This document shows positions 6,301 through 44,103 of a stretch of DNA of 64,000 nt, one piece after another. Both the position numbers and the translations under genes were made by a program. Position 1 is the first letter of the stretch. The number at the start of each line of letters is the position of its first letter. The notes below the pieces were generated by a model. That model ran no database searches. It had not been told where the DNA came from and saw nothing but the letters and a program-made list of their open reading frames with translations. The stretch comes from a virus. Location: positions 1 through 64,000 of the IMG/VR virus record IMGVR_UViG_3300010151_000008; one strand, written 5' to 3'.

Positions 6301-6614
6301 GGGGGTGACAAGGTTTCGACAGGGTAGAGAAACTGAATGGTGCAGGTTGTGCAATCTGAGATGATCACATTAAACTTAACTCAGAATTAACTTAACTGCC
6401 AACAACGCAGATTACGATTTAGCCTTAGCTGCTTAGTCCTTGGTTGCTCTTCACCAAGTGTTCAAGAAGAGCATTGATAAGAGAAACGCTTTTGTTAATG
6501 ATTGCGGATTAAAAAATTAACTATTTTGCTGCTTTAGAAAAAACAGCTAAACCTGTGAATGACCTGAAAGGGAAAATGCTTTGGACGTGGGTTCGATTCC
6601 CACCACCTCCACCA
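6301..6614 (+). ncRNA. ssrA: tmRNA (transfer-messenger RNA)
   Basis: 5' GGGGGTG pairs with 3' CACCTCC-ACCA with a G3-U70 alanine identity pair; GGTTTCGAC 5' motif; T-arm GTGGG-TTCGATT-CCCAC; tag ORF 6398-6436 ANNADYDLALAA*. Confidence 0.95.
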
Positions 6615-6622
6615 AATATATT

Positions 6623-9608: not shown

Positions 9609-10072
9609 TGCGGTGTAGCTCAATGGTAGAGCATTCGGCTGTTAACCGAAGGGTTGCAGGTTCGAGCCCCGCCGCCGCAGCCATTCTCATGCTTTTTGTT
9701 CTTGGGGGGTGTTTTTTCACCTATGATGATGGACGCCGCGACGGTACCATCTCTTCTCACGAATATTATGATTATTATCCTTACATTATAGATGTAGGGT
9801 GGGACTGTTACGACGGGGGCCCCTTTGACGACTGGTATTTTTTGGCCCGAACTGATCATACATATGATTGGTATCAAATATACTACTTGAGGATTACGAT
9901 GTATTCCCTGTATGAAACAGAAGTTTTTGAATTTAAGGAGTACGACCACACGCGCGGCTACTTTGAGACTGACACTAATTTGTATAGAATTCAGTGCGGA
10001 GATCCTGTCGACATAGAATACACAGTTGTTGACAGAGACGGAAATTGGGAAAGTTTTACGCTTTACTGGTAA
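9608..10072 (+). CDS. Putative lipoprotein whose 5' end overlaps the tRNA-Asn
   Basis: AGGAGG SD 7 nt upstream, TAATG coupling, lipobox LGG-C at codon 35, Tyr/Asp-rich mature domain. Confidence 0.7.
   Translation: MRCSSMVEHSAVNRRVAGSSPAAAAILMLFVLGGCFFTYDDGRRDGTISSHEYYDYYPYIIDVGWDCYDGGPFDDWYFLARTDHTYDWYQIYYLRITMYSLYETEVFEFKEYDHTRGYFETDTNLYRIQCGDPVDIEYTVVDRDGNWESFTLYW
9609..9683 (+). tRNA. tRNA-Asn (GTT)
   Basis: Acceptor TGCGGTG/CGCCGCA, D-arm GCTC-AATGGTA-GAGC, anticodon arm TTCGG-CTGTTAA-CCGAA, T-arm GCAGG-TTCGAGC-CCCGC (one A-C mismatch), G73, encoded CCA. Confidence 0.9.
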
Positions 10073-28810: not shown

Positions 28811-29136
28811 CAATTTGGATAATAATATTTGTTTTATCGGTTTTGTTAAATATCACCTTGGCGTGGTACGTCTATAAGGTGTTAGCAAAGCTGCTTTACA
28901 CAGCCGATAATCTTGGCGACCTGTATGTTGCATTTCGTATGTATGAAAGATTTTGTGATTCTCTATATGAAATGGATATGTTCTATGGAGAACCGGTCAT
29001 TAAAGAGTTAATTGACAAAACAAAGCTTGTGCGCGAGGAGTTGCAAAGGTTTGAGGATATATACGGCTTGACCACCGATGCGGAATTACTTGAGGAGGAA
29101 ATGGCCGATGACGAAGCCCAAGAAGAAGCGCGCTAA
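28807..29136 (+). CDS. Membrane-anchored hypothetical protein
   Basis: N-terminal TM helix; YEMDMFYGEP motif. Confidence 0.65.
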   Translation: MTIWIIIFVLSVLLNITLAWYVYKVLAKLLYTADNLGDLYVAFRMYERFCDSLYEMDMFYGEPVIKELIDKTKLVREELQRFEDIYGLTTDAELLEEEMADDEAQEEAR

Positions 29137-29809
29137 GAGGCGTAAGAATTATTATTTTACACAAGTGCACGAAGATGCCATTGTTGAATATGCCAATACC
29201 ACAGACCGCGATCGGAGAACTGAGCTATATATTGAATTAATCCAGCCGGCCCTCGATGAAATGGTTAATAAAATCATTTTTACTTATCGATTTACGTCGC
29301 TTCCTAATATTGATTATTTACGTCAAGACTGTAAAATATGGTTGACCACGATTCTTGATAAATTCGACCCTTCCAAAGGGTCAAAAGCCTTTTCTTATTT
29401 TAGTGTTGTAACTAAAAATTGGTTTATTCATAAAGTTAAACAAAACGCTCGCCGCGCGCGCAAAGAAGTTTTCCTAGAGGACATGATAAACGAGCTTGAG
29501 GAAGAAGTTGTATCCCAGGAAAAACAATATGATCAGCTGAGAATAGAACGAGAATTTTGGAACAACTTTTACGAAGAACTTTCGAAGTGGGATGCCGACA
29601 TGCTGAAAGAAAATGAAAAAAAGGTTCTGCAGGCAGTTAAAATCCTTTTTGAATCCTCTGGGGATATTGAAATTTTCAACAAAAAGGCTATTTATTTATA
29701 CTTGAGAGAGATTACGGGGCTTAATACCAAACAGGTCGTCAATAACCTAAATAAACTTCGTAAAAAATATAGGACTTTTAGAGGCAAATGGGAAAGCGGC
29801 GAAATTTAG
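29108..29809 (+). CDS. Phage-encoded sigma factor, T4 gp55 (late sigma)-like
   Basis: DKFDPSKGSKAFSYFSVVTKNWF resembles sigma region 2.2-2.4 of gp55-type factors; GAGGAGG upstream of ATG 29108. Confidence 0.7.
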   Translation: MTKPKKKRAKRRKNYYFTQVHEDAIVEYANTTDRDRRTELYIELIQPALDEMVNKIIFTYRFTSLPNIDYLRQDCKIWLTTILDKFDPSKGSKAFSYFSVVTKNWFIHKVKQNARRARKEVFLEDMINELEEEVVSQEKQYDQLRIEREFWNNFYEELSKWDADMLKENEKKVLQAVKILFESSGDIEIFNKKAIYLYLREITGLNTKQVVNNLNKLRKKYRTFRGKWESGEI

Positions 29810-30087: not shown

Positions 30088-31302
30088 GTGGCCAAGAAGA
30101 AAAAAAGTCGTATCAATCAGATGCGTTATGGGGAGATGAATTTTTTAGGGTCTGCCTATGGTAAATCAACTTTTGACCCAAGCCGCGTAGATATTATAAG
30201 TGTTTTACAGGGAAGCAACACCGATTATTATACTGCCAATGTAATCGCCGGGAAGCGACGTTGGAATGCTATCGTACTGAGATCCACTCAACAAACGCAT
30301 GCTACAGTTTCTTCAGAATTCCAGAGATCCTATACCGTTTTTGAGCGGGGAAATGAAGATGGCGAATTTGTACATTTTACATATAAGATTTATATAGCTG
30401 AGCTAGACGGTTTTAAGAAAATCCCTGAAAAGTTCTCGTCTAATTCAGAGGACGCCGGCCTGGTAAACTTATGCCGAGACGCGCTAGCGCCCCTAGGTCA
30501 ATCATATGGCAAGATAGATTATGGTACGCCCGTCGAGGTGGTCTTTGCCGACCAAGAAAAGTTAAGACACCCAACAATTGTAGATGTCCACTGGAATCGA
30601 AGGATTTCATTGCAGAGCGGAGTGCAGCCCCTGTGGACCACGTCAGGCCCCCGAGTGACGGTAGCATCCCCCCACGAGGGCGCCCTACCAGAGGATACCG
30701 GACCCCCCATTCCCGGTCGCGCAGGTCAGGTTCGGAACGGAAAGGCCTTCTACGACGACCTCGGCCGTGCTGGAATAGAGTGTGAGGCGTTGCGCCATGG
30801 AATTTTGGTTAACGTTAAAAATGAGTCAAGATTTGATCCTAGCGTCCCGGGTGACTCCATTCAGCGCTTGGGCGCCCCAGGAAAGCCGGGAGGTATAAAA
30901 ACAGATTACCCGGGCAACCCCGACGCACCATGGCCAAAACTACCCACAAAACTTTATGCTTCCTACGGCCTGTTTCAAATGAACATCGGCCGATCCGACG
31001 CCCTGGGCTGGCAGATGTTAGAATATTACAATTTGACCGATGCTGACAACGACGCCAAATTGGATATTTTGACCGGCGAAAAGGGATATGATAAGCAAAT
31101 AGAATTTATGGTTCATAAGCTAGAGACAAATTATCCTTCGGTCCTCGATTGTTCTAGGTATAAAACTTCACAGCAATATCACGATTTCTGGCTTGAGCAG
31201 ATCGAAAATCCCTCTAAGACTGAGGCCATCGGTCACCGCAACAGACGTAAAGGACTCTTTAAAAGAACCCTTAGAGGACTCGGTTTTGAACCGATCGAAT
31301 AA
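30088..31302 (+). CDS. Paralogue A: shared OB-fold-like N-domain plus lysozyme/lytic-transglycosylase-like C-domain
   Basis: N-domain shared with the next two genes; C-domain KNESRFDP...SYGLFQMN...QIEFM. Confidence 0.7.
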   Translation: MAKKKKSRINQMRYGEMNFLGSAYGKSTFDPSRVDIISVLQGSNTDYYTANVIAGKRRWNAIVLRSTQQTHATVSSEFQRSYTVFERGNEDGEFVHFTYKIYIAELDGFKKIPEKFSSNSEDAGLVNLCRDALAPLGQSYGKIDYGTPVEVVFADQEKLRHPTIVDVHWNRRISLQSGVQPLWTTSGPRVTVASPHEGALPEDTGPPIPGRAGQVRNGKAFYDDLGRAGIECEALRHGILVNVKNESRFDPSVPGDSIQRLGAPGKPGGIKTDYPGNPDAPWPKLPTKLYASYGLFQMNIGRSDALGWQMLEYYNLTDADNDAKLDILTGEKGYDKQIEFMVHKLETNYPSVLDCSRYKTSQQYHDFWLEQIENPSKTEAIGHRNRRKGLFKRTLRGLGFEPIE

Positions 31303-31304
31303 CA

Positions 31305-32501
31305 ATGTCTACTAAAAAAACAGCTCTGAAAGATATCCGCCATGGCGAAATGAATGCTTTAGAAGCACCTTCAACGCAGCCTAGATTTGATCCCTCCCGT
31401 GCGCAGGTTGTTGACGTAATGAGAAACAACATATCAAACCATTATACGGCCAACACCATCAAGGGCAAAAGACGATGGAACGCGATTGTTCTTAAGAGCA
31501 CACAGCAAAAGTATGCGCACGTTGCGTCTGAATTTCAAAGAACCTATACGTCCTACGAGAGGGGCAATAGTGATGGTGAATTTACACACTTTACATATAA
31601 AATATTTATAGCAGAGCTTGATAGCTTTAAGAAGCTCCCTGAAGACTTTAGGAATAGCGGGCCCAGCGCTGGCTTACTTAATTTATGCCGAGATGCCATA
31701 TCTCCTTTGGGGAAGAGTTGGGGCAAGATAGATTATGGTACCCCGGTCGAAGTTGTATTTGAAGACCAGGAGAGACTCCGTACTCCAATTATTACAGACG
31801 TACATTCTAATCGACGCATTGCTCTTAAGGGTGAAAAAAGCGCACAAGGACTTTTCCTTACGTCTCCGCGGATCGCGCGCGAATCAGCCGGAGGATCTGC
31901 AACTGTTGGTAGCCGTACGGTAACAGACTGCAACGAAACTGATTTTGGAGCTTTAAAGAATGTTGATACGTGGCCAAAAAGATGGCGCTCAAAGTGGCGT
32001 GCAATGGAAAAGGCTTCCCGAGCCACCCGAATGGATACGGCCTATAATTATTTTATAAACAAGGATTATAGTGCCGCGGCTAGCGCAGGTATAGTGGGTG
32101 GTTTGATACAAGAGTCATCAGTTAGCCCGGACGCTTGCAATAAGACCGATAAAGATTATTGCGTGGCATACGGTATTGCGCAGTGGACCTCTGAGCGCCA
32201 AAAGAGATTGAAAGAAAAATATCCTAATACCTACAATACACTAAATTCTCAACTAGACTGGTTATACTACGAGCTATCCCAAGGGAGGGAACAAAAAGCC
32301 GGCAGGCTGTTGTCTGCTGCCACCACGTTAGGAGAGGCTGTATATGGGGCTGCCAATTTTGAGAGATTTAGTGGCTATAAGAGCGGTCAACAAGGAATTT
32401 ATACGAACTGTCCTGATTTTGGAAGAGGGCACGAATGGGGCGGCCGCGCCTATTATTCGGTTGGGGTTTACGAACGACACAATAGTTCCGCGGGAGTTTA
32501 A
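31305..32501 (+). CDS. Paralogue B: shared N-domain plus phage tail lysozyme (Phage_lysozyme2-like) domain
   Basis: YSAAASAGIVGGLIQES...YGIAQWT..RQKRL...LNSQLDWLYYEL...FER. Confidence 0.8.
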   Translation: MSTKKTALKDIRHGEMNALEAPSTQPRFDPSRAQVVDVMRNNISNHYTANTIKGKRRWNAIVLKSTQQKYAHVASEFQRTYTSYERGNSDGEFTHFTYKIFIAELDSFKKLPEDFRNSGPSAGLLNLCRDAISPLGKSWGKIDYGTPVEVVFEDQERLRTPIITDVHSNRRIALKGEKSAQGLFLTSPRIARESAGGSATVGSRTVTDCNETDFGALKNVDTWPKRWRSKWRAMEKASRATRMDTAYNYFINKDYSAAASAGIVGGLIQESSVSPDACNKTDKDYCVAYGIAQWTSERQKRLKEKYPNTYNTLNSQLDWLYYELSQGREQKAGRLLSAATTLGEAVYGAANFERFSGYKSGQQGIYTNCPDFGRGHEWGGRAYYSVGVYERHNSSAGV

Positions 32502-32561
32502 ATAGGTAATGTCCATCAAAAAGACAGTGGCCACGATGGTGTGGCGGAGGTACACAAGCTA

Positions 32562-33977
32562 ATGGTTATCAAGCTAGATAAGATTACTCAGATGCGTTAT
32601 GGCCAGATGAATGAGCTGGTTGACCCCATCGCTCAACGACGATTTGATCCGAGCCGAGTGGAGATGGTTAGTGCACTCCGCTCTAACAATATTGATCGCT
32701 ACGTGGCAGATGTTATAGAGGGAAAGGAACGCTGGAACGCGATTGTTTTGTCGAGCACGCCACAGAATTATGCACACGTGGCGTCTGAGTTTCAACGAAC
32801 ATATTCTGCTTTTGAAAGACAAGACGGGGAATTTACACACCACACTTATAAAATTTTTATAGCTGAGCTAGATTCCTTTAAAAAGTTGCCCGACAAGTTT
32901 TCTCGTAGCGACAATCCGGATGCAGGACTGCTTAACTTATGTCGGACTGCTATCGCGCCTCTTGGCCAAGGGTGGGGCAAGATAGACCACGGAACCCCGG
33001 TGGAGGTGGTTTTTGAAGATCAGGAAAGACTAAGAAGTCCAATAATTGTAGACGTACACTGGAACAGGAGAATGCCTTTAGAGGCGGGTAAGACGGCGAC
33101 GTGGTCTGCAGCCGCCCCCCGTGTAACGGTGCCCACTAACGATAATTTAAAACAAGCGCCCCCACCGGTGATCGAAGGCTGCGACAACTATTTTATACCA
33201 TCAAGAGCTGGAGCGAACAAGTCGAGGGTCTTGGCCCTCGGGGCCTCTTTTGCGTCGGGCAAGCAAACTTGGGCTGGCCATGAGAGATTAAATCGCAAAC
33301 CTAGTGGAAATTTAGATCTGGACAGGGTGGCAAAGGGGAGTATGCTATTGGCCGGAGGGAAGAAATCAATACTTGCTCATCTGCAGGCAAACGTCAATTC
33401 GGGATGTATAAAGGCAGAAGACTATGACTCAGTAATAATATTTGGTGGCGCTAACGGAATGACGGACAGAAAAGAAAATCAATGGGAGATGGGTCTTAAA
33501 AAACTTTTAACATACGTACGAGATGAGATGGGGATTCAATACAGATATGTTGTAACCCTCCATGGCTGGTATGGCTGGAGAGACACGAGGAGAAAACTGG
33601 CCGATAAGGACAGCGGACTCCCTGATGACCCGAGCACACCAGATGTTGATGAATCAAAGGAGGAAGTTTGGGCGAGCGGCTGGAAAGAACCTAAAAGAAA
33701 AAAAGTAGCGGAGTGGACACTGAAGTATAACAACGACATCATCGCAGCCGAGGGTGACCTCATTACTGGCGTCTTAAGGTGGAGCAAGGACGCGACCGCC
33801 ACTAACGAGACTGGAAGCGAAGACATAGGCGAGATTATTCCAATAGGAGAACCAGGAGGACCTCGCGACTGGTTCCGAAAACCATGGGCCAGCAGCGATG
33901 GCTTACATCCCAGTGAGGCAGGCCACAAGGAAATTGCGCGCCGTCTTCGCGCGATGGGGATCCCAGGTCTAAAGTGA
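32562..33977 (+). CDS. Paralogue C: shared N-domain plus SGNH/GDSL hydrolase domain
   Basis: VLALGASFA (block I); IIFGGAN (block III); DGLHPSEAGH (block V). Start ATG 32562 chosen by alignment with paralogues. Confidence 0.78.
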   Translation: MVIKLDKITQMRYGQMNELVDPIAQRRFDPSRVEMVSALRSNNIDRYVADVIEGKERWNAIVLSSTPQNYAHVASEFQRTYSAFERQDGEFTHHTYKIFIAELDSFKKLPDKFSRSDNPDAGLLNLCRTAIAPLGQGWGKIDHGTPVEVVFEDQERLRSPIIVDVHWNRRMPLEAGKTATWSAAAPRVTVPTNDNLKQAPPPVIEGCDNYFIPSRAGANKSRVLALGASFASGKQTWAGHERLNRKPSGNLDLDRVAKGSMLLAGGKKSILAHLQANVNSGCIKAEDYDSVIIFGGANGMTDRKENQWEMGLKKLLTYVRDEMGIQYRYVVTLHGWYGWRDTRRKLADKDSGLPDDPSTPDVDESKEEVWASGWKEPKRKKVAEWTLKYNNDIIAAEGDLITGVLRWSKDATATNETGSEDIGEIIPIGEPGGPRDWFRKPWASSDGLHPSEAGHKEIARRLRAMGIPGLK

Positions 33978-34080: not shown

Positions 34081-35397
34081 ATGGCCGACGACCCCACTAG
34101 AACATCAGCCGAGATAGCACAATCTCTAGCTTATTATGACCCTACTTCGGGCCCCCCGATTATTCCCCCCGATCCATCTTCTCCCGATGGTGAGATTCTT
34201 TATGGCGAACTGGGAGATGAGCGTAGAGAAAGTTATAATAACTACGCCATGGATCTCGATCAATATGATCGGCAGCTGGAACAGTACGAGGAATATTTAA
34301 CCTCTCAGCAAGATCCTGGTTCTGCTAATCCTGCGATGTCACCCGGGGCGATTACCGCCGCAGCCGGTGCGCTTGGTCTGCCCGACCCTCCAGGCCTCCC
34401 CAGTTCGGGCCCCCCCGCCCCCGGCGCGTCGTCCTTGGGGCCCGTGCAACAAAAACCAGCTGTAGATTTGGGAGACCCCCTTGAGGCCGAGTCATTTGAG
34501 AAGATGTCTTTGCCGGATCAGATTGCTTTTTCGGGTATTGGAGGTTCCAAGCGCCGCGGCGTAGACGTCCCCAAATTTATTAAGACGCCTGCAGAAAAAG
34601 TTTTAGACAATGGAAATGCTTTTATTGTTTTGGGGGTCGACCGAAGTGGTAATCCGTTTGAGGGCTATGGTGGACTGGGAAACACTCATTGTGCGGCGAT
34701 TGATATTGTTGCCGGCCGCATGGGCGCCCGCGCTAGAAGCAGAGATGATAGCAAACCTTTTCCGAAGCCGGTGTGGACCAACGTTGGTTTTATTGCCGAC
34801 GCTGCGCGCGTATATATTTCTCAAAAGTCAAATGTGGATGCATATTTTGGCCTGGCAGCCGGCACAGTAGGGAATACATCATATGAATCGCCTCGGTCCA
34901 CTGTCGCTCTCAAAGCCGACACTATTCGAATCATTGGCCGAGAAGGGATCAAGCTGGTGACCAATACGGATACTCAAAATTCTCAAGGCGGTGTTGTACA
35001 TGGCTCTCCCGGTATTGACTTGATAGCAAATAACAATGATGAGGACATGCAGCCGCTTGTGAAGGGTAACAATTTGATAGAGGCACTTAAAGAAATATTA
35101 AAACTAATTGACGATCTTCGCGACCTATTTAATAACTTTGTTAGCTATCAAAAAGATCTGAATCGAACGTTAATGACGCATAGCCACTATTCTCCATTTT
35201 ACGGAGCGGCTACGAGCCCGGATCCACAAGTGATTCGACAGGCTACCCAATTTTTGATCGATACTGTTAGAAACGTAGAACTGGGCGCCCAGAACCACAT
35301 GATGAATTCAGTTGGAATTTCAATGAATTATTTAGAACTTCCTCTGCCAGGAAAAGACAGCACTTACATAAATAGTACCAACAACCACACGAATTAA
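34081..35397 (+). CDS. Putative baseplate central spike / gp5 C-terminal-like protein
   Basis: Pro-rich N-terminus; beta-rich DAARVYISQK, ALKADTIRIIGREGIKLV; QPLVKGNNL; helix then THSH (HxH); position upstream of gp25/gp6. Confidence 0.6.
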   Translation: MADDPTRTSAEIAQSLAYYDPTSGPPIIPPDPSSPDGEILYGELGDERRESYNNYAMDLDQYDRQLEQYEEYLTSQQDPGSANPAMSPGAITAAAGALGLPDPPGLPSSGPPAPGASSLGPVQQKPAVDLGDPLEAESFEKMSLPDQIAFSGIGGSKRRGVDVPKFIKTPAEKVLDNGNAFIVLGVDRSGNPFEGYGGLGNTHCAAIDIVAGRMGARARSRDDSKPFPKPVWTNVGFIADAARVYISQKSNVDAYFGLAAGTVGNTSYESPRSTVALKADTIRIIGREGIKLVTNTDTQNSQGGVVHGSPGIDLIANNNDEDMQPLVKGNNLIEALKEILKLIDDLRDLFNNFVSYQKDLNRTLMTHSHYSPFYGAATSPDPQVIRQATQFLIDTVRNVELGAQNHMMNSVGISMNYLELPLPGKDSTYINSTNNHTN

Positions 35398-35401: not shown

Positions 35402-38400
35402 ATGGCACGCACACCCAAGATAATAAGCAAATGGACGAGCAAAGAAACTGGTGTTGCTTATACGCAGTTTAATAAATCAAAAGTAGCAGTACAGACACAG
35501 TATACCACAGCAGATGAAATTGAACAAAACACTGAGGCGATTCTTGAACTGGGCGCCCTTGCTCTTATGCGCTATTATTTCCCCGGCTCTTGGTATCAGG
35601 TAGCTGCAGGGGTCCAGGGTGACACATATGGAAGTCTACTTTTTAGTAATTTATTAGACAAGCTTACGGTCTCGGCTACCGATTTTAATAGCCGGCCTAA
35701 GATGGGGCTTCGTGTTTTGGTGGCGTGCTCTATTGATTTGACAGATGAGGAAGAGACTGCCGAGATAATTCCTCCCGAGAGTGGCCCGCCAGCTGATTTA
35801 GAGTTAGCATTGGATTATTATCTTTCTACTGGGTCGACTGATATCAAAAAAGTTTCGAGTACCGGCCGATCTATGACATTTTCAGCGGACACCCTCAACG
35901 AAAACCTGAAATTGATTGGCGCCGCTTTTACTAAATATCATAAACAACATCGTTTTTTTAATGGGCAGATTAAGCCTTCAATAAATTTTTTAAAGGAATT
36001 TGATCTTATATCAAGTTCAATTCATGCCATTCTGCGTCTGGCTGCCCAGAACTATATTGACACAGGTATTCACTCAGGTACAACATTTAAAGTTGATTTT
36101 AATGGTGATTATTCTATTGTAAATATAAAAGCCATAACTCCTGAAGGGCGCTACCTATCTCTTCCTGTGGGGTTGCTGCCGTCTTTGGGCGCCGCAGCGT
36201 TGTCTTCAAGACAAACTAATGTTTATCTGGCGTCTTTTAAAGATATATTAATCAAGTTAAGAACTCGGGGCCCGACTCAAGATTCTTATGCCAACTTTAT
36301 TAATTTTATAAAACAAGTATCCTCCCTCGGCCCGACTAAATACAAAATTAATTATTCGGGGCCGTCCCGAACCGCCGATGCCGGCGCTACCGCGGCTGCT
36401 ACCGCCACCCAAGGAACGGCAGCCGCAACCGGCACTGCTACTGGGGTGGATCCAGATGGCCCCCCAAACGCAGAACTTGGTCTGACTCCGGAGGAGAAAG
36501 AGAAACAAGAAAAGGTTATAACTCCCAAAGAGGCGGCAGAAATTCTCGAACAACAGATGAAAAAGGTCGACAAGGCCGCCCAAGAGGTCTCTAAAGAAGT
36601 TGGCAAGAAGTTGCGCGAGTTACAGGGTACCGAAGGTTTTCAAATATTCACGATGATCATCAATCGGATAGGGATTGATTCTCTTGTAAAGGAGGGGCTC
36701 CTTTGTATGCTCTTCGGAGTTGATTTTAGTATACCCGATCTTTATTCTGACATAAGAGATATGCTTTCCGCTGGCGATGGACTTTTTAGTAAGCCAAAGA
36801 CAGGCGCCCTTGTGGGCTTTGATATTCCTAAAGTGGACATGAAGTGGGAAATTTTTAAGATTACGGGAAACATTCAGCCGATGATCAAGAAGGCTCTTTT
36901 GGATGCCGTCTTCGGCGCAGTACGAGGGATCCTTGAAGCCGTTACAGAATTAATTCGCGAACAATGTGAAGCTCGCGATACCGGCAATTTTGGCGACATA
37001 GACCTTGCTAGCCTATTACAAGATAAGCCGGCCGGCGGTACTGGACTACTTGGTGATGGTTCTGGGCCTAATGGTTGTTTTTCTGAATTCGGCTTACCTC
37101 CAACGTCAGGGAACAATTTTCTTTCCCAGGTATCTCAAATCTTGACCCCGATCGAGGCATGCCAGCTTTTGACGGGGTCAGCCTCGGCCGCTGTTATGTC
37201 CGCGGTCCAAAATTTCATTCAAAATTATTCTAGCGCTACAATACAAAACGCTCTTGGGTCGCCCTCTGAAATAGCCGCCTTCTTTTTATGTATAGGGGAC
37301 CAACTCGATGTAAACGATCTTTGTCGGGAAGCTGCCGAGCGCGATATAATCCCCAACGCAGAGGAAATTTGTATTACAGGTGGGGACATTTTAGATGCTG
37401 TGGGTCAACATAATGTTAACACTCTTCTCGATATGCTTAAGGATGGCATCGCGGTGGAAATGCCAGAGATCAACTTACAGTGCCCCGACTCCGAGAACTA
37501 TATTCCCAACCCCTTTGTTGATCGATCGATCCCACAGTTAATGAGCGCTCTAATAGAGTCAATAGCCGCCAGCTTTTATTTCGCGGCCGACGGCACGAAG
37601 GCGGTTCTTTTGAGATCGCAGTTGGGACAGAATGCTACAGCAAATGCTTTGTTAGAGGCTTGCTTAAGCGAGTCAGGTTCAATGCCGGCCTCCGAGGCTC
37701 GCGGCGGAGCTGGCGCCACTCCCGGTGATATTATTGCTATGATCAGTGAGGGCATCCAGGAAGTAGTGTCAACAGACCTTAACGCTGCGTCCGATGCATG
37801 CGGTATCACCTTGGGAGAAATATTCCGAGGAACAGACGATCTAGCCGAGGTATTGGCAACATTTCAAGATGTCATAGAAAACTTTGATTTCTCGGCTTTG
37901 GGAGACATGTCCGCACAGTTGGGCTCGAACGCAAGCGATTTGGCCGCGGCGCAGTTGAGACTCGACTTTCCAGAGGGTTATAAAGAGGATTTCTTAGAAT
38001 TTATTCCTACGGCTATCAAGACTGAACTCTATAATGGCAACTATTTGTACAATTTCAACACAGCCTATCAATCTCCAGCTTTTCATGTAGAAGCGGAGGG
38101 ACCGCCATTCACGTATACGCTCGACGATGGAGACGACGACGGCGACGGCACCCCTAACTACGACGACCGCGACGAAGGCGGCACCGGCGAACCGCACGAG
38201 AACTACGATATGCACGCTCTGCAGAATGCTGCCGACGCCGCGCAGCACGCCGCCATGGCCCGGACTCGATACACGACCACCTTCGCACTCCCAGCTGAGG
38301 GATATCAGGCCAATGCAAATGCAGCTCAGATGCAAGAAGAGTTAGAAGCCATAGAGGAATGGGAATTCAATCATGGTAACTCTAATATGATAGGACAATC

Positions 38401-41400
38401 GAGGCACTTTGAAGAGTGGCTGAAGGGAAACCGGCAAGGTGACCTTTGGTGGGAGGAAGGCCAGCAGGACTGGTGGTCTCCCGAGGGCTATTCGTGGTAT
38501 CAGTGGTTTAAGCTTTGGGCCGAGCAAAGAATTGAGCGCGATGAGGAACAAGGGCCTGATTGGTGGATGCGGTCGACCTTAGCCCTCCCGGCTGATACGC
38601 GTGGCGCGCTCCCCGGGTTTGGCAATAAACAGCTATTAGGTCCGGGGTATGGGCCCGAAGATCCGCAGCCGGAGGTGGATGGCTACCAGCAAGGCTGGTG
38701 GGATATGTACCGTGCCCCAGAGCGCTGGGCCACAGCGACGCAAGCAGAAATACGCGCAGACGAGAGAGTGTGGAAAATATATCAAACGCTGTTCTCGCCA
38801 TGGCTCCGTGCCAATCCAGACGACTCCATTTTGGCCGGCGAATGGGACTACGGCGAGGTCTGGTGGATCGCAAATATTCCATTTGAGTATGTCCCCCGAC
38901 CTCCCGGCCCGGGTGGCGGTGGCCCTCAGCCAATTGCTCACATCGGGCGGTCTACGATGTTCGGTGCACCCGAAGGGATAGGTGGCCGCTCTGCCGGCTT
39001 CTCTGCTGGAACTGGAATAAAATTCCTGTTCCGGAAAGAATATGCGATTCAAAAGTATGAGAGCATTCATTTCCCGAGTTTTCAAGAAGTAACAGAAGAT
39101 AACCAGAATATATTTGTTGCCAGCGCCCCTGTGGCCTTTCGTGGAGAGATTCCTTTTATAGAGGGGCGTCAGGGACTGCAGACGACTACTGCAACAGAAT
39201 TGTATGCCGTGAACCAATCCGCGCACGGATCGGTAATTTCTCCAGATAGAATCGCAGAACGCGACGCCAATCCAGCGCGCGGCCTTTTTGCTGACATAAT
39301 CCACTCAGCATTCGCGAAAAATCTGCTAGAACACGGGAATAGTGACCTAGCCGCGGCCGCGAGGGTCACAGCCGCCGGCGGCGAATACACCTCCGGCATC
39401 TTGGCCGAATTCTATAACAACCTAGAACACCAATATTATTATGCAGCCATGGCCGGAACTATGAAGCAAATGAGTGCTTACATAGTGAAAAATGGTGCAT
39501 TTACACTTGATAGAGTACTTAAGATCCTGGTGGTTCCGGAGAGTGCTAACGATGCTACAGAACAGTTGGGAGATCTACTAGATTTCAAAAAGCTTGTTCG
39601 TGAAGTGCAGGATGAATATGTAGATGCTATTTGCTACGACGGTCTTAGTCAAGACGAGGTTTTGATTAATTCGCTTGTGTACGGAGCTATAGAACTATTT
39701 TTACAAGTGCATCTGGTTGAGTTTTATTTACAAAATGTGTTTGTTTTGTCGGCATTTGATTTAGACGGGCTGTACGAACTAGAATTGGTGATGGCATATA
39801 TTTCTTCCTCCATACAAAATACGATTGCTACTTTTTTGCAGGGGATAAGTGCCTCAGGGGCCCAGTATAATTTGTTTGAAACGAATTTTCAAGATGCGGT
39901 AGTGGAGCATGTTAGCAGAAAAATTATACGCGACGGCGGCGCTCCTATCGATGGTGAGATTCTGTCATCTTTGGGAATGTCAGAAGGCGATTTGGGAACC
40001 TACGAAGCTAGCATTAGATATCTTCTGGCTAAAAGGATGAAGGAATCCGCCCCAGCTGTATCTAAAATTATCTCCCAATGTTCACTTGGGTCTGTCGACG
40101 AAGTCTTCTTGAAGGCGGGAATTGGCATTTCTAAACCATTTTTGAAAGGCCTAGGAGCCGATTGGGGACTTAGTTCTACTAGTCGATATCTAGTAGCATC
40201 GCCAGGTGATCGGGATCTTGGGTTTACCGAGGAAGATGCTCAAATTATTGCCTATGGTGGATTTAGATTTGAGAAAATAATTAGATTCACACCGCATACA
40301 TCCGGATATTACGGAGGCTCTGAGGAAAATCCAGATGTACACCTAAGGGTGGACAAGGAGCTGGGAACCATTGCAGGGGGCAATTGGGTAGCTAACGACA
40401 CCTTTAAGATCGGCTCGGCCTATCACACCGATTCACCAATAACACAAAACTTTGTTTCATTGGACAAGCTAATTAGAGTTTTAGACGACCCCGCGGTTAC
40501 GGATAACATGACCATTCTGGGTAATCCAACGTTATATTATCGATTGGTATATTATGTTCCGATGCAAACTCGATCCGAGTATTCCGCCAACTCCTCCGGC
40601 GAAATAATTTTCGCGGACTCGGCAACTAAAAACCAAGAAATAATGGACACGATCGAGGCGTACTTCCTCGATGCTCGTGACGGAGATGACGCCATAGTGA
40701 GAGACACGCTCGATACCCTTATCAACGACCAAGCTTCATTTGTTCCGTTCTTGGTGGGCCCCGGCGGAGGGGACGCATCGATGTCGCACGCCGTCGCCGC
40801 GCCCGCATCGAGACAGAACATGACGATAGGAATTCCCATTTTAGAAGTTGAGTCGGGGGTAAATCTACCCAACAGTATGCGTCTTGATACTGATTCGAGC
40901 GCTCCCAAGCGGTACTGGGGCGCCCCCACAACGGGTGGATTATCGTTGATAAGGTCTTTGGCAGAAAAGGATTTCTTAGATGGAGATGTCGAGATCATCA
41001 TGAATGACGAGGTTGTGAAAGCACTGTTTAATAAGAGTCTGAGCAAAGATGTTATTCTGTCTACCCTCTTGTTTAATAATTTTTATCTAACAAAATCACA
41101 CTTTAGGGGAATCGATACGATCTTTAAGTCCTGCAAGGAATCGGTGGCCGCACTAATGATGCAAATACAGCAAGGCCGCGGCCTCCAGCCAGACGCTGGT
41201 GCAGCCGGCATCGCTCAAATACAGAATGCTTTAGCTAATCAAGGTCAGGGGGGAGGTAGTGACGATCCCAACGTGGCGGCCTATATCATAAAAGCTATAA
41301 TCCAAACTCCTTTTGATATCCTTAAGGGCTTAGCCGAGATAATGGATCCACATGTTGTTATAACCAAAATGATAAAAGATATAAGTGGTATGGTGATAAC

Positions 41401-41836
41401 ACAGTTTATTGAGGTTTTAGAGTCAGCATTTGGCGCCGTCCCGGGCCTAGCACAGCTTGACATTGATGTGGAGAAACTAGTAGAAGTTCTTTTCTGTACC
41501 ATGAATGAAGAAATAAAGAAGAACGGGCCCATGTCAAACGCCGCGGCAGAAATATCAGAGATGTTGTGTCAAGACATCAATCCGTGGCCCACCTTTACGA
41601 CAAAAGGAATCCAGTTTACTGGGACCATTCCCGGCATGTTTATGGCCCCTCCGGGCCCTCTGGGAATTTTCTATCTTATATATGGATTACTTAAAAACGA
41701 GATTGACAGAGGTATTGACGATGCCTTCGCCGCCCCAGCCGGCGAAACAGACGAATTCTGTATTGATGTAGAAGCTGTTGTCGAAGGCGAAGAAGATACT
41801 GGCTGCGTACCGTTCACTGCGCAGCGCGACGACTAA
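35402..41836 (+). CDS. 2144-aa virion protein of unknown function (baseplate-associated)
   Basis: Long uninterrupted ORF between spike-like and gp25-like genes; helical; hydrophobic C-terminus. Confidence 0.75.
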   Translation: MARTPKIISKWTSKETGVAYTQFNKSKVAVQTQYTTADEIEQNTEAILELGALALMRYYFPGSWYQVAAGVQGDTYGSLLFSNLLDKLTVSATDFNSRPKMGLRVLVACSIDLTDEEETAEIIPPESGPPADLELALDYYLSTGSTDIKKVSSTGRSMTFSADTLNENLKLIGAAFTKYHKQHRFFNGQIKPSINFLKEFDLISSSIHAILRLAAQNYIDTGIHSGTTFKVDFNGDYSIVNIKAITPEGRYLSLPVGLLPSLGAAALSSRQTNVYLASFKDILIKLRTRGPTQDSYANFINFIKQVSSLGPTKYKINYSGPSRTADAGATAAATATQGTAAATGTATGVDPDGPPNAELGLTPEEKEKQEKVITPKEAAEILEQQMKKVDKAAQEVSKEVGKKLRELQGTEGFQIFTMIINRIGIDSLVKEGLLCMLFGVDFSIPDLYSDIRDMLSAGDGLFSKPKTGALVGFDIPKVDMKWEIFKITGNIQPMIKKALLDAVFGAVRGILEAVTELIREQCEARDTGNFGDIDLASLLQDKPAGGTGLLGDGSGPNGCFSEFGLPPTSGNNFLSQVSQILTPIEACQLLTGSASAAVMSAVQNFIQNYSSATIQNALGSPSEIAAFFLCIGDQLDVNDLCREAAERDIIPNAEEICITGGDILDAVGQHNVNTLLDMLKDGIAVEMPEINLQCPDSENYIPNPFVDRSIPQLMSALIESIAASFYFAADGTKAVLLRSQLGQNATANALLEACLSESGSMPASEARGGAGATPGDIIAMISEGIQEVVSTDLNAASDACGITLGEIFRGTDDLAEVLATFQDVIENFDFSALGDMSAQLGSNASDLAAAQLRLDFPEGYKEDFLEFIPTAIKTELYNGNYLYNFNTAYQSPAFHVEAEGPPFTYTLDDGDDDGDGTPNYDDRDEGGTGEPHENYDMHALQNAADAAQHAAMARTRYTTTFALPAEGYQANANAAQMQEELEAIEEWEFNHGNSNMIGQSRHFEEWLKGNRQGDLWWEEGQQDWWSPEGYSWYQWFKLWAEQRIERDEEQGPDWWMRSTLALPADTRGALPGFGNKQLLGPGYGPEDPQPEVDGYQQGWWDMYRAPERWATATQAEIRADERVWKIYQTLFSPWLRANPDDSILAGEWDYGEVWWIANIPFEYVPRPPGPGGGGPQPIAHIGRSTMFGAPEGIGGRSAGFSAGTGIKFLFRKEYAIQKYESIHFPSFQEVTEDNQNIFVASAPVAFRGEIPFIEGRQGLQTTTATELYAVNQSAHGSVISPDRIAERDANPARGLFADIIHSAFAKNLLEHGNSDLAAAARVTAAGGEYTSGILAEFYNNLEHQYYYAAMAGTMKQMSAYIVKNGAFTLDRVLKILVVPESANDATEQLGDLLDFKKLVREVQDEYVDAICYDGLSQDEVLINSLVYGAIELFLQVHLVEFYLQNVFVLSAFDLDGLYELELVMAYISSSIQNTIATFLQGISASGAQYNLFETNFQDAVVEHVSRKIIRDGGAPIDGEILSSLGMSEGDLGTYEASIRYLLAKRMKESAPAVSKIISQCSLGSVDEVFLKAGIGISKPFLKGLGADWGLSSTSRYLVASPGDRDLGFTEEDAQIIAYGGFRFEKIIRFTPHTSGYYGGSEENPDVHLRVDKELGTIAGGNWVANDTFKIGSAYHTDSPITQNFVSLDKLIRVLDDPAVTDNMTILGNPTLYYRLVYYVPMQTRSEYSANSSGEIIFADSATKNQEIMDTIEAYFLDARDGDDAIVRDTLDTLINDQASFVPFLVGPGGGDASMSHAVAAPASRQNMTIGIPILEVESGVNLPNSMRLDTDSSAPKRYWGAPTTGGLSLIRSLAEKDFLDGDVEIIMNDEVVKALFNKSLSKDVILSTLLFNNFYLTKSHFRGIDTIFKSCKESVAALMMQIQQGRGLQPDAGAAGIAQIQNALANQGQGGGSDDPNVAAYIIKAIIQTPFDILKGLAEIMDPHVVITKMIKDISGMVITQFIEVLESAFGAVPGLAQLDIDVEKLVEVLFCTMNEEIKKNGPMSNAAAEISEMLCQDINPWPTFTTKGIQFTGTIPGMFMAPPGPLGIFYLIYGLLKNEIDRGIDDAFAAPAGETDEFCIDVEAVVEGEEDTGCVPFTAQRDD

Positions 41837-41887: not shown

Positions 41888-42283
41888 ATGGCTAATGGTT
41901 TATCGGTGGCTCTTCCGCTTCAACAGAGTCCTATTTTTGGTACGTACAGACTAAACACCACGTTTGCAGAGATCGCGCGACAAAACCTGAAGATGCTTTT
42001 GTTAACCAATCCGGGCGAGAGAATGATGGATCCGGAGTTTGGTGTTGGAATGCAGAGATACTTATTTGAAGCGAATACGAAGTTTGTATACTCAGAGATA
42101 CAAAGTAGAATTGAGCAGCAAGTTAAAAAGTATCTTCCATACATAGGAATAGATAAAATTGAGTTTTTAACATCCGCTTTGGAGTCAGCCGTTGATCCTC
42201 ACTATTTGGGAGTCAATGTTTCTTTTATAATACTGCCACTTAACATGAGTTCTCTGTTGCAGATTAATGCAAACGGAAACTAA
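41888..42283 (+). CDS. Baseplate wedge subunit, T4 gp25/GpW-like
   Basis: QNLKMLLLTNPGERMMDPEFGVG...YLFE...KKYLPYI. Confidence 0.9.
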   Translation: MANGLSVALPLQQSPIFGTYRLNTTFAEIARQNLKMLLLTNPGERMMDPEFGVGMQRYLFEANTKFVYSEIQSRIEQQVKKYLPYIGIDKIEFLTSALESAVDPHYLGVNVSFIILPLNMSSLLQINANGN

Positions 42284-42312: not shown

Positions 42313-44103
42313 ATGCCAAAAAAACTGCAACCGATTAACTACACAAGTAGAGACTTTGATAGTATCAGGCGTGACTTAGAAAATTACGCTAAGCGCTATT
42401 ATCCCGATTCGTATCGAGACTTTAATGAAGCCAGTTTTGGCTCTTTGATGTTGGACACCGTTTCCTATATAGGGGATATTCTTTCCTTTTATATAGATTA
42501 TCAGACCAATGAAAGCTTTTTAGACAGCGCTATAGAATATAGTAACATAGTACGTCTTGCGAGGCAACTCGGGTTTAAGTTAAACTCCAGCCCCTCGTCT
42601 TATGGGGTTCTGACTTTTTATATCAGCGTTCCGGCTTCCACCTCGGAAGACGGACCAGATTTGGCGTACGCACCCACTCTACAAGCCGGCTCTCAGTTTG
42701 GTTCGAGCGGCGGTGGCCTTTTCACCCTTCTTGAAGATATTACTTTTTCCAACCCCGCTAATCAGATGGTGGCCGGCGTGATAGTTAATGAAGCGCCCGC
42801 ATCTTATGTTATACGTGCCCAGGGGCGCGCGGTTTCTGGACGGCTAGCACGAGAAACCAAAATTGTTGGAACCTATGAGCGTTTTAGAAAAGTATTTCTT
42901 TCATCTGACCAGGTCGCAGAGATTATATCAGTAACTGATTCCGAGGGTCATGAGTACGTAGAGGTTAATAATCTCTCTCAGAACGTAGTTTATAAGGCAA
43001 TTCGGAATACTCAAGCGTTTAGTGATACGGTACCCTCCATACTGAAAGCGGTGCCGGTCGCCCGCCGATTTACAGTTGAGAGGAGCAAGCGCGCCACTTA
43101 CTTGCAGTTTGGGTACGGATCTGACTCAGAGCTGCTTGCGGAATCGATAGCTGATCCATCTAATGTGGTTTTAAAGCTTCATGGAAAAGATTATATTACT
43201 GAAGATGATTTTGATCCAACGAGATTAATAGAAAGTGATAAATTTGGAATTGCTCCGGCTGATACCACATTAACGATCTCCTACAGAGTTAATACAACTC
43301 GCGATGTTAATGCGGCGGTGGACACTGTTGTACAGGTCTTATCCCCGCAGATAAAATTTTCAAACCAGGGCGCCTTGAATTCCACTACCAGACGAGAGGT
43401 GGCTGCGAGCCTTGAGGTAACCAACGAAAACCTAATTACAGGGGATATATCTTTGCCATCCTCTGATGAAATCCGCCAACGGGTAATTTCTCATTATTCG
43501 GCACAAAACCGCGCGGTAACAGCACAGGATTATCAGGCTGTCATTTATGGCATGCCCGTCTATTTCGGATCTGTAAAACGGTGTTCTGTGGCGAGGGACT
43601 TTACGGAGTTTAAAAGAAACGTCAACATGTATGTTATTTCTGAAGATACAACGACCGGTCGACTTACCACTACCAACTCCATTATCAAAACCAACCTTAG
43701 TACGTGGTTGGCCCAATACAAAATGATAAATGATACACTTGATATATTAGATGCCATCATAGTCAACTTTGGCGTGGAGTATCGGCTAATATCAGACTAT
43801 GACTCAAATAAATATACAGTGCTAAAAAATGCCAATTCTGCCCTAACTGCACACTTTTCCAGAACTCGTGATATCGGTGAGCCGGTATATATTACAGATA
43901 TTTATAAGGTATTGAATGGCGTTAAAGGAGTAGTAGACGTGTTGGATGTTCAGATAGTTAGCAAAACGGGCGGCATTTATTCATCGACTGGATACGATTT
44001 CGAAGCAAAACTATCTAACGACGGTCGTTATATAGTTGGAGATCCGTCGGTTATATTTGAGTTGAAATACCCCAATGTAGATATTCAGGGATCAATCACA
44101 TAA
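42313..44103 (+). CDS. Baseplate wedge protein, T4 gp6-like
   Basis: INYTSRDFDSIR...DFNEASFG...D.LSFY.D...NESFLDSA; LQFGYG; QNRAVTAQDY. Confidence 0.9.
   Translation: MPKKLQPINYTSRDFDSIRRDLENYAKRYYPDSYRDFNEASFGSLMLDTVSYIGDILSFYIDYQTNESFLDSAIEYSNIVRLARQLGFKLNSSPSSYGVLTFYISVPASTSEDGPDLAYAPTLQAGSQFGSSGGGLFTLLEDITFSNPANQMVAGVIVNEAPASYVIRAQGRAVSGRLARETKIVGTYERFRKVFLSSDQVAEIISVTDSEGHEYVEVNNLSQNVVYKAIRNTQAFSDTVPSILKAVPVARRFTVERSKRATYLQFGYGSDSELLAESIADPSNVVLKLHGKDYITEDDFDPTRLIESDKFGIAPADTTLTISYRVNTTRDVNAAVDTVVQVLSPQIKFSNQGALNSTTRREVAASLEVTNENLITGDISLPSSDEIRQRVISHYSAQNRAVTAQDYQAVIYGMPVYFGSVKRCSVARDFTEFKRNVNMYVISEDTTTGRLTTTNSIIKTNLSTWLAQYKMINDTLDILDAIIVNFGVEYRLISDYDSNKYTVLKNANSALTAHFSRTRDIGEPVYITDIYKVLNGVKGVVDVLDVQIVSKTGGIYSSTGYDFEAKLSNDGRYIVGDPSVIFELKYPNVDIQGSIT

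What the first reader, a model, noticed from the sequence alone, without database searches (positions are those of the whole stretch)
33200..33977. SGNH esterase paired with two muramidase-type domains: possible peptidoglycan de-O-acetylase
Seen: GAS(F) nucleophile block, GGAN oxyanion block and DGLH catalytic block. Established: O-acetylation of MurNAc C6 blocks lytic transglycosylases and most lysozymes, and bacterial O-acetylpeptidoglycan esterases (Ape1) are SGNH enzymes. Inference: paralogue C removes the protective acetyl groups so that A and B can cut, overcoming a host wall-modification defence. Deacetylation of LPS or exopolysaccharide is an alternative.
Basis: partly seen in the sequence, partly recalled or inferred. 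Interest (0 to 1): 0.75.

Follow-up and report, generated by a model that had tools for sequence, protein, structure and literature searches.

The report
Tail-hub esterase beside two phage lysozymes
A T4-like phage from a metagenome carries, next to two tail-lysozyme genes, a third copy of the same tail-tip docking domain fused to an intact SGNH esterase, which most likely strips ester (probably acetyl) groups from the host envelope during infection, though its substrate is not known.

Summary
Gene C (32541/32562-33977, +) ends in an SGNH-fold domain (aa ~225-478). Its residues Ser236 (GAS), Gly266, Asn305 (GGAN), Asp453 and His456 (DGLH) are kept in homologues as low as about 25% identical. 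The model matches solved SGNH esterases at Z 12-14.

Residues 1-190 form an OB fold. Its best structural matches are central-spike and hub proteins of contractile tails: phage P1 (Z 8.0), cyanophage A-1(L), VgrG, Afp8 and cyanophage gp5. The gene lies in a T4-type baseplate module, after a gp55-like sigma factor and before a spike-like gene, gp25 and gp6.

Paralogues A and B share this carrier and bear Phage_lysozyme2 domains. Elsewhere the same carrier bears M23, VanY, GDPD, phosphatase and endolysin-like domains. It is therefore a polymorphic carrier-plus-warhead family, and a rare one: 20 hits among 1.84 billion representative proteins.

Peptidoglycan de-O-acetylation is the leading reading (about 0.4), but nothing here separates it from other glycan or lipid esters. 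No Ape1-type accessory domain is present. An SGNH domain on a tail hub has a precedent in Staphylococcus phage Tal, whose activity is also unknown. Other first-reader notes on this same genome flagged the same stretch.

The parts
32541..33977 (+). Gene C, 478 aa from GTG 32541. The likelier start is ATG 32562 (471 aa), which matches P0021 and lines up the N-termini of A and B.
32541..33110 (+). N-terminal carrier domain (aa 1-190): a helix followed by a gp5/VgrG-type OB fold. It is 62% identical to the same domain in A and B.
33111..33212 (+). Pro-rich linker (aa 191-224), low model confidence. It contains Cys214.
33213..33974 (+). SGNH hydrolase domain (aa 225-478), with two low-confidence insertions (aa 344-368 and 416-454).
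33240..33251 (+). Block I, GASF. Ser236 is the predicted nucleophile.
33330..33341 (+). Block II, AKGS. Gly266 is the predicted oxyanion-hole residue.
33444..33455 (+). Block III, GGAN. Asn305 is the predicted oxyanion-hole residue.
33897..33908 (+). Block V, DGLH. Asp453 and His456 complete the predicted triad.
30088..31302 (+). Paralogue A: the same carrier plus a divergent Phage_lysozyme2-like domain. The ES...GLFQ motifs are invariant within its class.
31305..32501 (+). Paralogue B: the same carrier plus a Phage_lysozyme2 domain (2e-19).
34081..35397 (+). Conserved downstream gene (438 aa), possibly the spike. It follows the paralogue array in L005, L006 and L014 as well. No family match was found.
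29078..29809 (+). gp55-like late sigma factor upstream of the array (a weak match).
41888..42283 (+). gp25-type baseplate wedge protein.
42313..44103 (+). gp6-type baseplate wedge protein.

Best explanation
Gene C encodes a virion protein of the baseplate centre. A gp5/VgrG-type OB-fold carrier domain docks it at the tail hub beside its paralogues A and B. A flexible linker then presents a catalytically competent SGNH serine esterase (Ser236-His456-Asp453, with Gly266 and Asn305 forming the oxyanion hole).

When the tail contracts, the domain enters the host envelope and periplasm together with the two lysozyme-family domains. Its most likely job there is to hydrolyse small ester substituents. 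The leading candidate is the 6-O-acetyl group of MurNAc, which blocks lytic transglycosylases and most lysozymes; removing it would let A and B cut the wall locally.

Shown here: the esterase fold and its conserved catalytic residues, the OB-fold carrier, the baseplate gene context, and the paralogy with lysozyme carriers. Inferred: presence in the virion, delivery to the periplasm, and the substrate.

Confidence by tier: about 0.8 for a hub-mounted, envelope-acting esterase, and about 0.4 for peptidoglycan O-acetyl specifically (the figure given below).
For: - SGNH fold and invariant catalytic residues.
- The N-domain model's best match among 48,161 chains is the phage P1 baseplate chain 9vzk_q (Z 8.0, rmsd 2.3, 71 aa, 20% identity). 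It is followed by A-1(L) 8kea_D, PVC and AFP spikes, VgrG1, Mu 9ki1_V, phi812 and the phiKZ spike at Z 5-7 and 15-23% identity.
- BFVD also hits cyanophage S-CAM9 and S-RIM14 'baseplate hub + tail lysozyme'.
- The gene order sigma-like / A / B / C / spike-like / giant protein / gp25 / gp6 recalls the T4 gene 5 region.
- B's match to a Rhizobium phage 'baseplate hub subunit and tail lysozyme' starts inside the carrier, at residue 152.
- Carrier domains resemble each other within a genome (59-62% here, 70% in L006) but differ between genomes (21%). The SGNH domains stay about 50% identical across those same genomes. This is what a docking module that must fit one partner would show.
- In all three loci with full context, the SGNH paralogue sits beside at least one lysin-type paralogue: Phage_lysozyme2, or phrog_90 'endolysin'.
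- Most other warheads on this carrier are peptidoglycan hydrolases: M23, VanY and lysozyme.
- De-O-acetylation is a prerequisite for cleavage by lytic transglycosylases (bioRxiv 10.1101/2021.09.23.461501, abstract).
Against: - No feature singles out peptidoglycan. Ape1 is not among the 50 best structural matches, and no Ape1_N/CBM35 domain is detected.
- Carbohydrate acetylesterases, PAF acetylhydrolase and the lysophospholipase TesA score alike.
- Relatives put GDPD and DSP-type phosphatase domains on the same carrier, so not every warhead targets peptidoglycan.
- A second SGNH subclass (P0026) may share a contig with a phosphatase carrier rather than a lysozyme carrier. This rests only on equal 'longest contig' lengths.
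- The OB assignment is at fold level only. hhalign against T4 gp5 is not significant, and the Gp5_OB and Phage_base_V HMMs find nothing in the record.
- Model confidence is moderate (pLDDT 62 and 67).
- The host is unknown.
Confidence: 0.4

Rival explanations
1. The same hub-mounted esterase deacetylates a different envelope glycan (LPS O-antigen, capsule, exopolysaccharide or S-layer glycan). It would clear or remodel the path or the receptor, as SGNH tailspikes do.
For: The nearest solved structures include carbohydrate acetylesterases, acetyl-xylan esterases and sialate O-acetylesterases. Many phage SGNH proteins found by BFVD are tail fibre or spike proteins (LIT1, KPP21, Xp15). Phage SGNH tail proteins that deacetylate surface polysaccharide are documented (PMC8471582, PMC9569702).
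Against: The domain sits on a central-spike-type OB carrier, not on a fibre or spike scaffold. It has no receptor-binding or beta-helix module. Its paralogues carry wall hydrolases that act after the outer layers have been crossed.
Confidence: 0.2
2. It is a lipid esterase (phospholipase A, lysophospholipase, or lipid A or lipoprotein deacylase) that weakens a membrane at the point of penetration. This would be analogous to lipase effectors carried on T6SS VgrG spikes.
For: The SGNH superfamily includes lysophospholipases. TesA (1ivn) scores Z 11.9 and PAF acetylhydrolase 12.9. One fragment homologue is named 'lysophospholipase L1-like esterase' by its source. Relatives carry GDPD (P0004) and phosphatase (P0017, P0027) domains on the same carrier, which fit lipid head-group chemistry. 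The carrier fold is shared with VgrG.
Against: No lipase-specific feature was identified. The best matches are short-chain (acetyl) esterases. The immediate partners here are lysozymes.
Confidence: 0.2
3. The protein is not a virion component, or the SGNH domain is not used as a hydrolase. Examples would be a soluble late enzyme, a binding module, or a PatB-like acyltransferase.
For: There is no proteomic or structural evidence for virion incorporation. PatB, an SGNH O-acetyltransferase, is among the Foldseek hits. The OB assignment is at fold level only.
Against: The complete catalytic set is conserved down to about 25% identity. The gene sits inside the baseplate module and shares its N-domain with tail-lysozyme carriers. 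The carrier co-varies within genomes, as a docking module would.
Confidence: 0.1

Closest known systems
T4 gp5 and other gp5/VgrG/gpV-type central hub-spike proteins (including cyanophage 'baseplate hub + tail lysozyme' and the split gp5 of Rhizobium phage RHph_I1_18)
   Same: An N-terminal OB fold is followed by an enzymatic domain. The gene sits in the baseplate module near gp25 and gp6. The presumed role is local digestion of the envelope after tail contraction.
   Different: The enzyme is an SGNH esterase rather than a lysozyme. The chain has no C-terminal triple beta-helix. It does not match the Gp5_OB or Phage_base_V HMMs. There are three paralogous carriers with different enzymes instead of one gene.
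Tal (tail-associated lysin) of Staphylococcus phages 80alpha (gp59) and phi11 (Gp44)
   Same: A tail-tip hub component carries a C-terminal SGNH/GDSL hydrolase domain. [quoted passage not shown] A related phage 187 SGNH protein appears among the BFVD hits.
   Different: The carrier there is a gp27-like hub domain of a siphovirus that infects a Gram-positive host. Here it is a gp5-type OB fold in a T4-like myovirus, and the gene belongs to a paralogue array. No sequence similarity was detected.
Ape1, the O-acetylpeptidoglycan esterase of Neisseria and Campylobacter
   Same: An SGNH catalytic domain with a Ser-His-Asp triad and a Gly/Asn oxyanion hole. The proposed reaction, licensing of lytic transglycosylases, is the same.
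   Different: No Ape1_N/CBM35 domain is present. There is no detectable sequence relationship. Ape1 is not among the top 50 structural matches. An Ape1_N + GDSL cluster appears as only one of ten generic Atlas structure rows (TM 0.57).
SGNH tail-fibre and tailspike polysaccharide deacetylases (for example Acinetobacter phage Aristophanes, Pectobacterium phage Possum)
   Same: A virion-borne SGNH esterase that acts on host envelope esters.
   Different: Those enzymes sit on peripheral fibres or spikes and act on capsule or O-antigen as receptor-modifying enzymes (PMC8471582, PMC9569702). This one sits on a central-spike-type carrier.
'Evolved' T6SS VgrG spikes and polymorphic toxins
   Same: A conserved delivery module is joined to interchangeable enzymatic warheads. 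Here these are lysozyme, M23, VanY, GDPD, DSP phosphatase and SGNH.
   Different: This is a phage tail component. The warheads presumably serve entry rather than killing.

Membership tests
SGNH/GDSL hydrolase superfamily | Block I Ser nucleophile at the end of the first beta-strand | tested here: met
   Ser236 in GAS lies directly after strand 229-235. It is invariant in all SGNH-type homologues.
SGNH/GDSL hydrolase superfamily | [quoted passage not shown] | tested here: met
   Gly266 is kept in all but P0019, and Asn305 is invariant.
SGNH/GDSL hydrolase superfamily | Block V DxxH | tested here: met
   In DGLH (453-456), Asp and His are invariant.
SGNH/GDSL hydrolase superfamily | Three-layer alpha/beta/alpha SGNH fold | tested here: met
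   VIA-align Z 12-14.1, rmsd 2.5-3.3, 156-180 aligned residues to many SGNH structures. Foldseek probability 1.0.
SGNH/GDSL hydrolase superfamily | Score above Pfam's curated cut-off (Lipase_GDSL / Lipase_GDSL_2) | tested here: inconclusive
   21.3 bits against a cut-off of 23.6. The homologues P0010, P0019, L006_1 and P0013 are also sub-threshold but hit the same families.
SGNH/GDSL hydrolase superfamily | Esterase activity | not testable with these tools
   Needs an enzyme assay.
Ape1-type O-acetylpeptidoglycan esterase | Ape1_N / CBM35-type accessory domain | tested here: not met
   No Pfam hit at E <= 1. The region before the SGNH domain is an OB fold plus a linker.
Ape1-type O-acetylpeptidoglycan esterase | Specific sequence or structural kinship with Ape1 | tested here: inconclusive
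   No PDB sequence hit. Ape1 is not in the 50 rows shown. An Ape1_N + GDSL cluster appears at TM 0.57 among generic rows.
Ape1-type O-acetylpeptidoglycan esterase | Release of acetate from O-acetylated peptidoglycan | not testable with these tools
   Needs a biochemical assay.
gp5/VgrG/gpV-type central hub-spike proteins | OB-fold domain of the central-spike type | tested here: met
   The best hit among 48,161 chains is the P1 baseplate chain 9vzk_q (Z 8.0). Several spike, VgrG and Afp8 chains follow at Z 5-7 with 15-23% identity. Generic OB folds such as uS12 and IF1A score similarly, so this is fold level only. Cyanophage gp5 is hit in BFVD.
gp5/VgrG/gpV-type central hub-spike proteins | Match to the Gp5_OB or Phage_base_V sequence models | tested here: not met
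   No hit in the protein or anywhere in the 92.7-kb record. hhalign against T4 gp5 gives E 0.83.
gp5/VgrG/gpV-type central hub-spike proteins | C-terminal trimeric beta-helix or needle in the same chain | tested here: not met
   The chain ends with the SGNH domain. A separate conserved gene follows (34081-35397), but its fold was not determined.
gp5/VgrG/gpV-type central hub-spike proteins | Gene located in the baseplate module | tested here: met
   gp25 (PF04965, 1.5e-11) and a gp6-like wedge protein lie downstream. The same order is seen in L005, L006 and L014.
gp5/VgrG/gpV-type central hub-spike proteins | Presence at the tail tip of the virion | not testable with these tools
   Needs virion proteomics or cryo-EM.

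The most novel reading that the evidence does not exclude
A, B and C co-assemble through their near-identical OB carriers into one heterotrimeric gp5-like hub. One tail tip would then deliver two different glycan-strand cleaving enzymes plus a peptidoglycan O-acetylesterase that unblocks them. This would be the first virion-borne O-acetylpeptidoglycan esterase and a built-in counter to wall O-acetylation, drawn from a polymorphic set of interchangeable 'warheads'.
Probability: 0.25. Interest if true: 0.8.

Novelty: new variant of a known kind. Interest (0 to 1): 0.55.

Why it matters
Tail-associated wall hydrolases are well known, and SGNH domains on tail hubs have been seen before (Staphylococcus phage Tal), but no activity has been assigned to them.

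Here the esterase is one of several interchangeable enzyme heads on a single gp5-type carrier, directly beside two lysozyme heads. That arrangement gives a clear and cheap experiment: does de-esterification license muramidase action during phage entry?

If the substrate is O-acetyl-peptidoglycan, it would show that phages counter a widespread wall modification at the entry step. It would also supply a new enzyme class for lysin cocktails against lysozyme-resistant bacteria. Even without the substrate, the polymorphic carrier family (lysozyme, M23, VanY, GDPD, phosphatase, SGNH) shows how T4-like phages diversify their penetration chemistry.

Tried and rejected
- tblastn of C against 50,697 phage records found no match.
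- phmmer of C, and profiles of the N-domain, the A class and the downstream gene, against PDB sequences found nothing.
- PHROGs and NCBIfam gave nothing useful for C.
- hhalign of the carrier profile against T4 gp5 and against the Rhizobium phage gp5-like protein was not significant. It did align GTPVEVVFED with gp5's GTRVYGHFLD.
- hhalign of the C family against IAS virus gp063 (annotated SGNH) showed no relation. Pfam sees only Phage_lysozyme2 in that protein.
- A profile search for cellular relatives of the SGNH domain found only members of the same carrier family. The profile also picked up carrier columns.
- The T4 late-promoter motif TATAAATA is not enriched and none lies upstream of the array.
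- The Gp5_OB and Phage_base_V models find nothing in the record.
- dN/dS against the 98%-identical variant rests on too few changes to mean anything (7 synonymous, 6 non-synonymous).
- Host assignment was not achieved. The tmRNA tag ANNADYDLALAA was not diagnostic to me.
- I could not read model coordinates, so the active-site geometry and the Cys214-Cys289 distance were not measured.
- Literature searches found no characterised phage O-acetylpeptidoglycan esterase. They did find the hypothesis, raised for Curtobacterium prophage SGNH proteins (PMC9862828).
Full report
**What is there.**
The window is the first 64 kb of a 92.7-kb IMG/VR virus record estimated to be about half complete. Three co-oriented genes lie at 30088-33977:
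- A, 30088-31302, 404 aa
- B, 31305-32501, 398 aa
- C, 32541-33977, 478 aa

They share their first ~190 residues at 59-64% identity and then diverge completely.
- GASF, aa 234-237 (nt 33240-33251)
- GGAN, aa 302-305 (nt 33444-33455)
- DGLH, aa 453-456 (nt 33897-33908)
- a block II glycine in AKGS (Gly266)

The likelier start of C is ATG 32562. That start gives the 471-aa form recorded as P0021 and lines up with the N-termini of A and B.

**Is it a real SGNH domain?**
Sequence models alone are marginal. Pfam Lipase_GDSL scores 21.3 bits against a cut-off of 23.6, and there are no PHROG, NCBIfam or PDB-sequence hits. Three further lines settle it.

1. Conservation. The family is very rare. Only 20 proteins among 1.84 billion representatives match C at E <= 0.001, and a few more turn up in the 5.8-billion set. 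Among those with the same C-terminal domain (P0021, P0005, P0022-24, P0010, P0019, L005_3; 25-56% identity), the Ser of block I, the Asn of block III and the Asp and His of block V are invariant. The block II Gly is lost only in P0019. A second subclass on the same carrier (P0013, P0025, P0026) has the canonical GDS...GAN...DGLH.
2. Fold. An AlphaFold model built on a 22-sequence alignment has an overall pLDDT of 62, with 80-93 in the core strands. It places Ser236 at the end of strand 229-235 and GGAN after strand 295-301.
   - Foldseek matches SGNH enzymes with probability 1.0: PAF acetylhydrolase, the acetyl-xylan esterase PbeAcXE, PatB, CE2 and Axe2.
   - VIA-align gives Z 12-14.1, rmsd 2.5-3.3 Å, over 156-180 residues.
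3. Language-model features. The ESM Atlas places residues 215-478 with SGNH/GDSL clusters at 0.96.

The defining features of SGNH enzymes (Ser-His-Asp triad, Gly/Asn oxyanion hole) are as set out in PMC9487903.

**What carries it.**
A separate model of residues 1-200 (pLDDT 67) is a helix followed by a five-stranded barrel. Foldseek sees a generic OB fold, ribosomal uS12. The exhaustive VIA-align search of 48,161 chains ranks the phage P1 baseplate chain 9vzk_q first (Z 8.0, rmsd 2.3, 71 residues, 20% identity). The following appear among the next rows at Z 5-7 and 15-23% identity:
- cyanophage A-1(L) baseplate chain 8kea_D
- the PVC, AFP, Streptomyces and Algoriphagus injection-system spikes
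- VgrG1 and VgrS
- Mu baseplate chain 9ki1_V, phi812, and the phiKZ spike

Generic OB proteins score in the same range at about 10% identity, so this is a fold-level assignment. It is strengthened by BFVD hits to cyanophage 'baseplate hub + tail lysozyme' proteins. B's tblastn match to a Rhizobium phage 'baseplate hub subunit and tail lysozyme' also begins inside the carrier, at residue 152.

The A-1(L) central spike is described as an N-terminal helix, an OB fold and a beta-strand domain (PMC10966104). The first two elements match the model here.

Sequence models do not confirm membership. hhalign against T4 gp5 gives E 0.83, and the Gp5_OB and Phage_base_V HMMs find nothing in the whole record.

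**Context.**
The gene order is:
- a gp55-like sigma factor (29078-29809, weak match)
- A, B, C
- a conserved 438-aa gene
- a 2144-aa protein
- gp25 (41888-42283; PF04965, 1.5e-11)
- a gp6-like wedge protein (42313-44103)

This recalls the T4 gene 5-6 region. The nearest cultured relatives of the wedge protein are Flavobacterium phage immuto and Microcystis phage Mel-JY01, at about 30% identity. The same layout recurs in three unrelated viral contigs:
- L005: three carriers (A-like, endolysin-like, SGNH), then the spike-like gene, then a giant gene
- L006: two carriers (SGNH, endolysin-like)
- L014: an SGNH carrier at the contig edge, then a 316-aa gene in the spike-like gene's position (not compared), then a giant gene

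**A polymorphic carrier family.**
Across homologues the same carrier bears these heads:
- Phage_lysozyme2 (B)
- a divergent Phage_lysozyme2 with invariant ES...GLFQ motifs (the A class)
- a phrog_90 'endolysin'-like domain
- Peptidase_M23
- VanY
- GDPD
- a DSP-type phosphatase
- two SGNH subclasses
- at least one unknown domain

Carriers are more alike within a genome (59-62% here, 70% in L006) than between genomes (21% between the window and L006). The SGNH heads of those same genomes are about 50% identical. This is the signature of a docking module that is kept compatible with one partner while the heads are exchanged. It is consistent with all paralogues occupying the same site, but it does not prove that.

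**How it most likely works.**
- Shown: an intact SGNH catalytic apparatus on a central-spike-type OB carrier, encoded in a baseplate module next to two lysozyme-family paralogues.
- Inferred: the protein is built into the tail tip and enters the periplasm on contraction, as the T4 gp5 lysozyme does. There it removes ester substituents.

The peptidoglycan reading is favoured for four reasons. It fits the position, since a central hub enzyme meets the wall rather than the surface. It fits the neighbours. Most heads in this family are wall hydrolases. Finally, 6-O-acetyl-MurNAc blocks lytic transglycosylases (bioRxiv 10.1101/2021.09.23.461501).

Nothing in the sequence or the model selects this substrate, however:
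- Ape1 is not among the 50 best structural matches, and the Ape1_N/CBM35 domain is absent.
- Acetyl-carbohydrate esterases, PAF acetylhydrolase and TesA score within about 2 Z units of each other.
- The GDPD and phosphatase heads show that the family also aims at non-peptidoglycan targets.

I put about 0.8 on 'hub-mounted, envelope-acting esterase'. For the substrate I put about 0.4 on O-acetyl-peptidoglycan, 0.2 on other glycans and 0.2 on lipids.

**Comparison with what is known.**
An SGNH domain on a tail hub is not new. Tal of Staphylococcus phages 80alpha and phi11 is a gp27-like hub with a C-terminal SGNH domain. Its role in wall degradation is suggested but its activity is not established (PMC7048315, PMC4876445). 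SGNH tail fibres and spikes that deacetylate capsule or O-antigen are characterised (PMC8471582, PMC9569702). The idea that phage SGNH proteins might de-O-acetylate peptidoglycan has been raised for Curtobacterium prophages (PMC9862828). I found no paper characterising a phage O-acetylpeptidoglycan esterase. Split gp5 genes also exist in cultured phages: Rhizobium phage RHph_I1_18 has an OB + Phage_lysozyme2 gene and a separate Gp5_C + peptidase M15 gene.

What is new here is the combination of three things: an SGNH head on a gp5-type carrier, a T4-like myovirus, and a tandem array of carriers with different heads. I therefore class it as a new variant of a known kind.

**Limits.**
- Both models are of moderate confidence and rest on shallow alignments.
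- I could not inspect coordinates.
- The host is unknown.
- Other first-reader notes on this genome (e1-6041652, -655, -656) propose the same architecture. They are not independent evidence. The parts I tested are stated above.

Noticed in passing
window 32509-32562: A 17-codon ORF (MSIKKTVATMVWRRYTS) sits between B and C. Its first six residues resemble B's start (MSTKKT), and its stop overlaps ATG 32562 as TAATG. That ATG is the likelier start of C, rather than the GTG at 32541 listed by the ORF finder.
   Followed up: partly
proteins P0004, P0006, P0014, P0015, P0017, P0027, P0008, P0020 (homologues of the carrier): In other metagenomic phages the same OB carrier is fused to GDPD, VanY, Peptidase_M23, DSP-type phosphatase (models PTP-NADK / Tc-R-P) and phrog_90 endolysin-like domains. 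This is a polymorphic 'warhead' system on a phage tail hub.
   Followed up: partly
window 30088-33110; L005 1262-4445; L006 6651-8700: Carrier domains are homogenised within genomes (59-62% here, 46-50% in L005, 70% in L006) but only 21-25% identical between the window and L006. The SGNH heads are about 50% identical across those same genomes. This suggests concerted evolution or recent head swapping.
   Followed up: partly
window 33180-33182 and 33405-33407 (Cys214, Cys289 of C): Two cysteines at the start of the SGNH domain are kept in all SGNH-I homologues except P0019, which lacks both. They may form a disulphide. The distance in the model was not checked.
   Followed up: no
window 35402-41836; L005 6355-13140; L006 10453-15333; L014 2197-8208: A giant gene (2144, >2262, 1626 and 2003 aa in the four loci) with no Pfam match lies downstream of the carrier array, right after the spike-like gene (in L014, a gene in that position that was not compared) and, in the window, before gp25. 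Its role is unknown; a tape measure or an ejected protein are possibilities.
   Followed up: no
window 34081-35397: The downstream 438-aa protein has a ~140-residue Pro/Gly/acidic N-terminus that its homologues lack. Its conserved core includes HCAAIDIVAG and an H-x-H motif (HSH / HTH). Pfam, PHROG and PDB-sequence searches gave no significant match.
   Followed up: partly
window 6301-6614 and 9609-9683: ARAGORN finds a one-piece tmRNA (tag ANNADYDLALAA) and a tRNA-Asn(GTT) encoded by the phage.
   Followed up: partly
L009 (Rhizobium phage RHph_I1_18, MN988519.1) 2764-5924: A cultured T4-like phage has a split gp5. One 300-aa gene is N-terminal region + Phage_lysozyme2. A separate 635-aa gene is Gp5_C beta-helix + Peptidase_M15. 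Both are annotated 'baseplate hub subunit and tail lysozyme'.
   Followed up: partly
L013 (IAS virus NC_049978.1) 5332-6732: The crAss-like phage protein gp063 is annotated 'SGNH_hydrolase domain containing protein'. Pfam finds only Phage_lysozyme2 (aa 220-340, 1e-25), and there is no relation to the SGNH domain studied here.
   Followed up: partly
window ~30000: G+C rises from 0.35-0.41 in the glycan-synthesis cluster (about 18-30 kb) to 0.46-0.51 in the baseplate module (30-42 kb).
   Followed up: no
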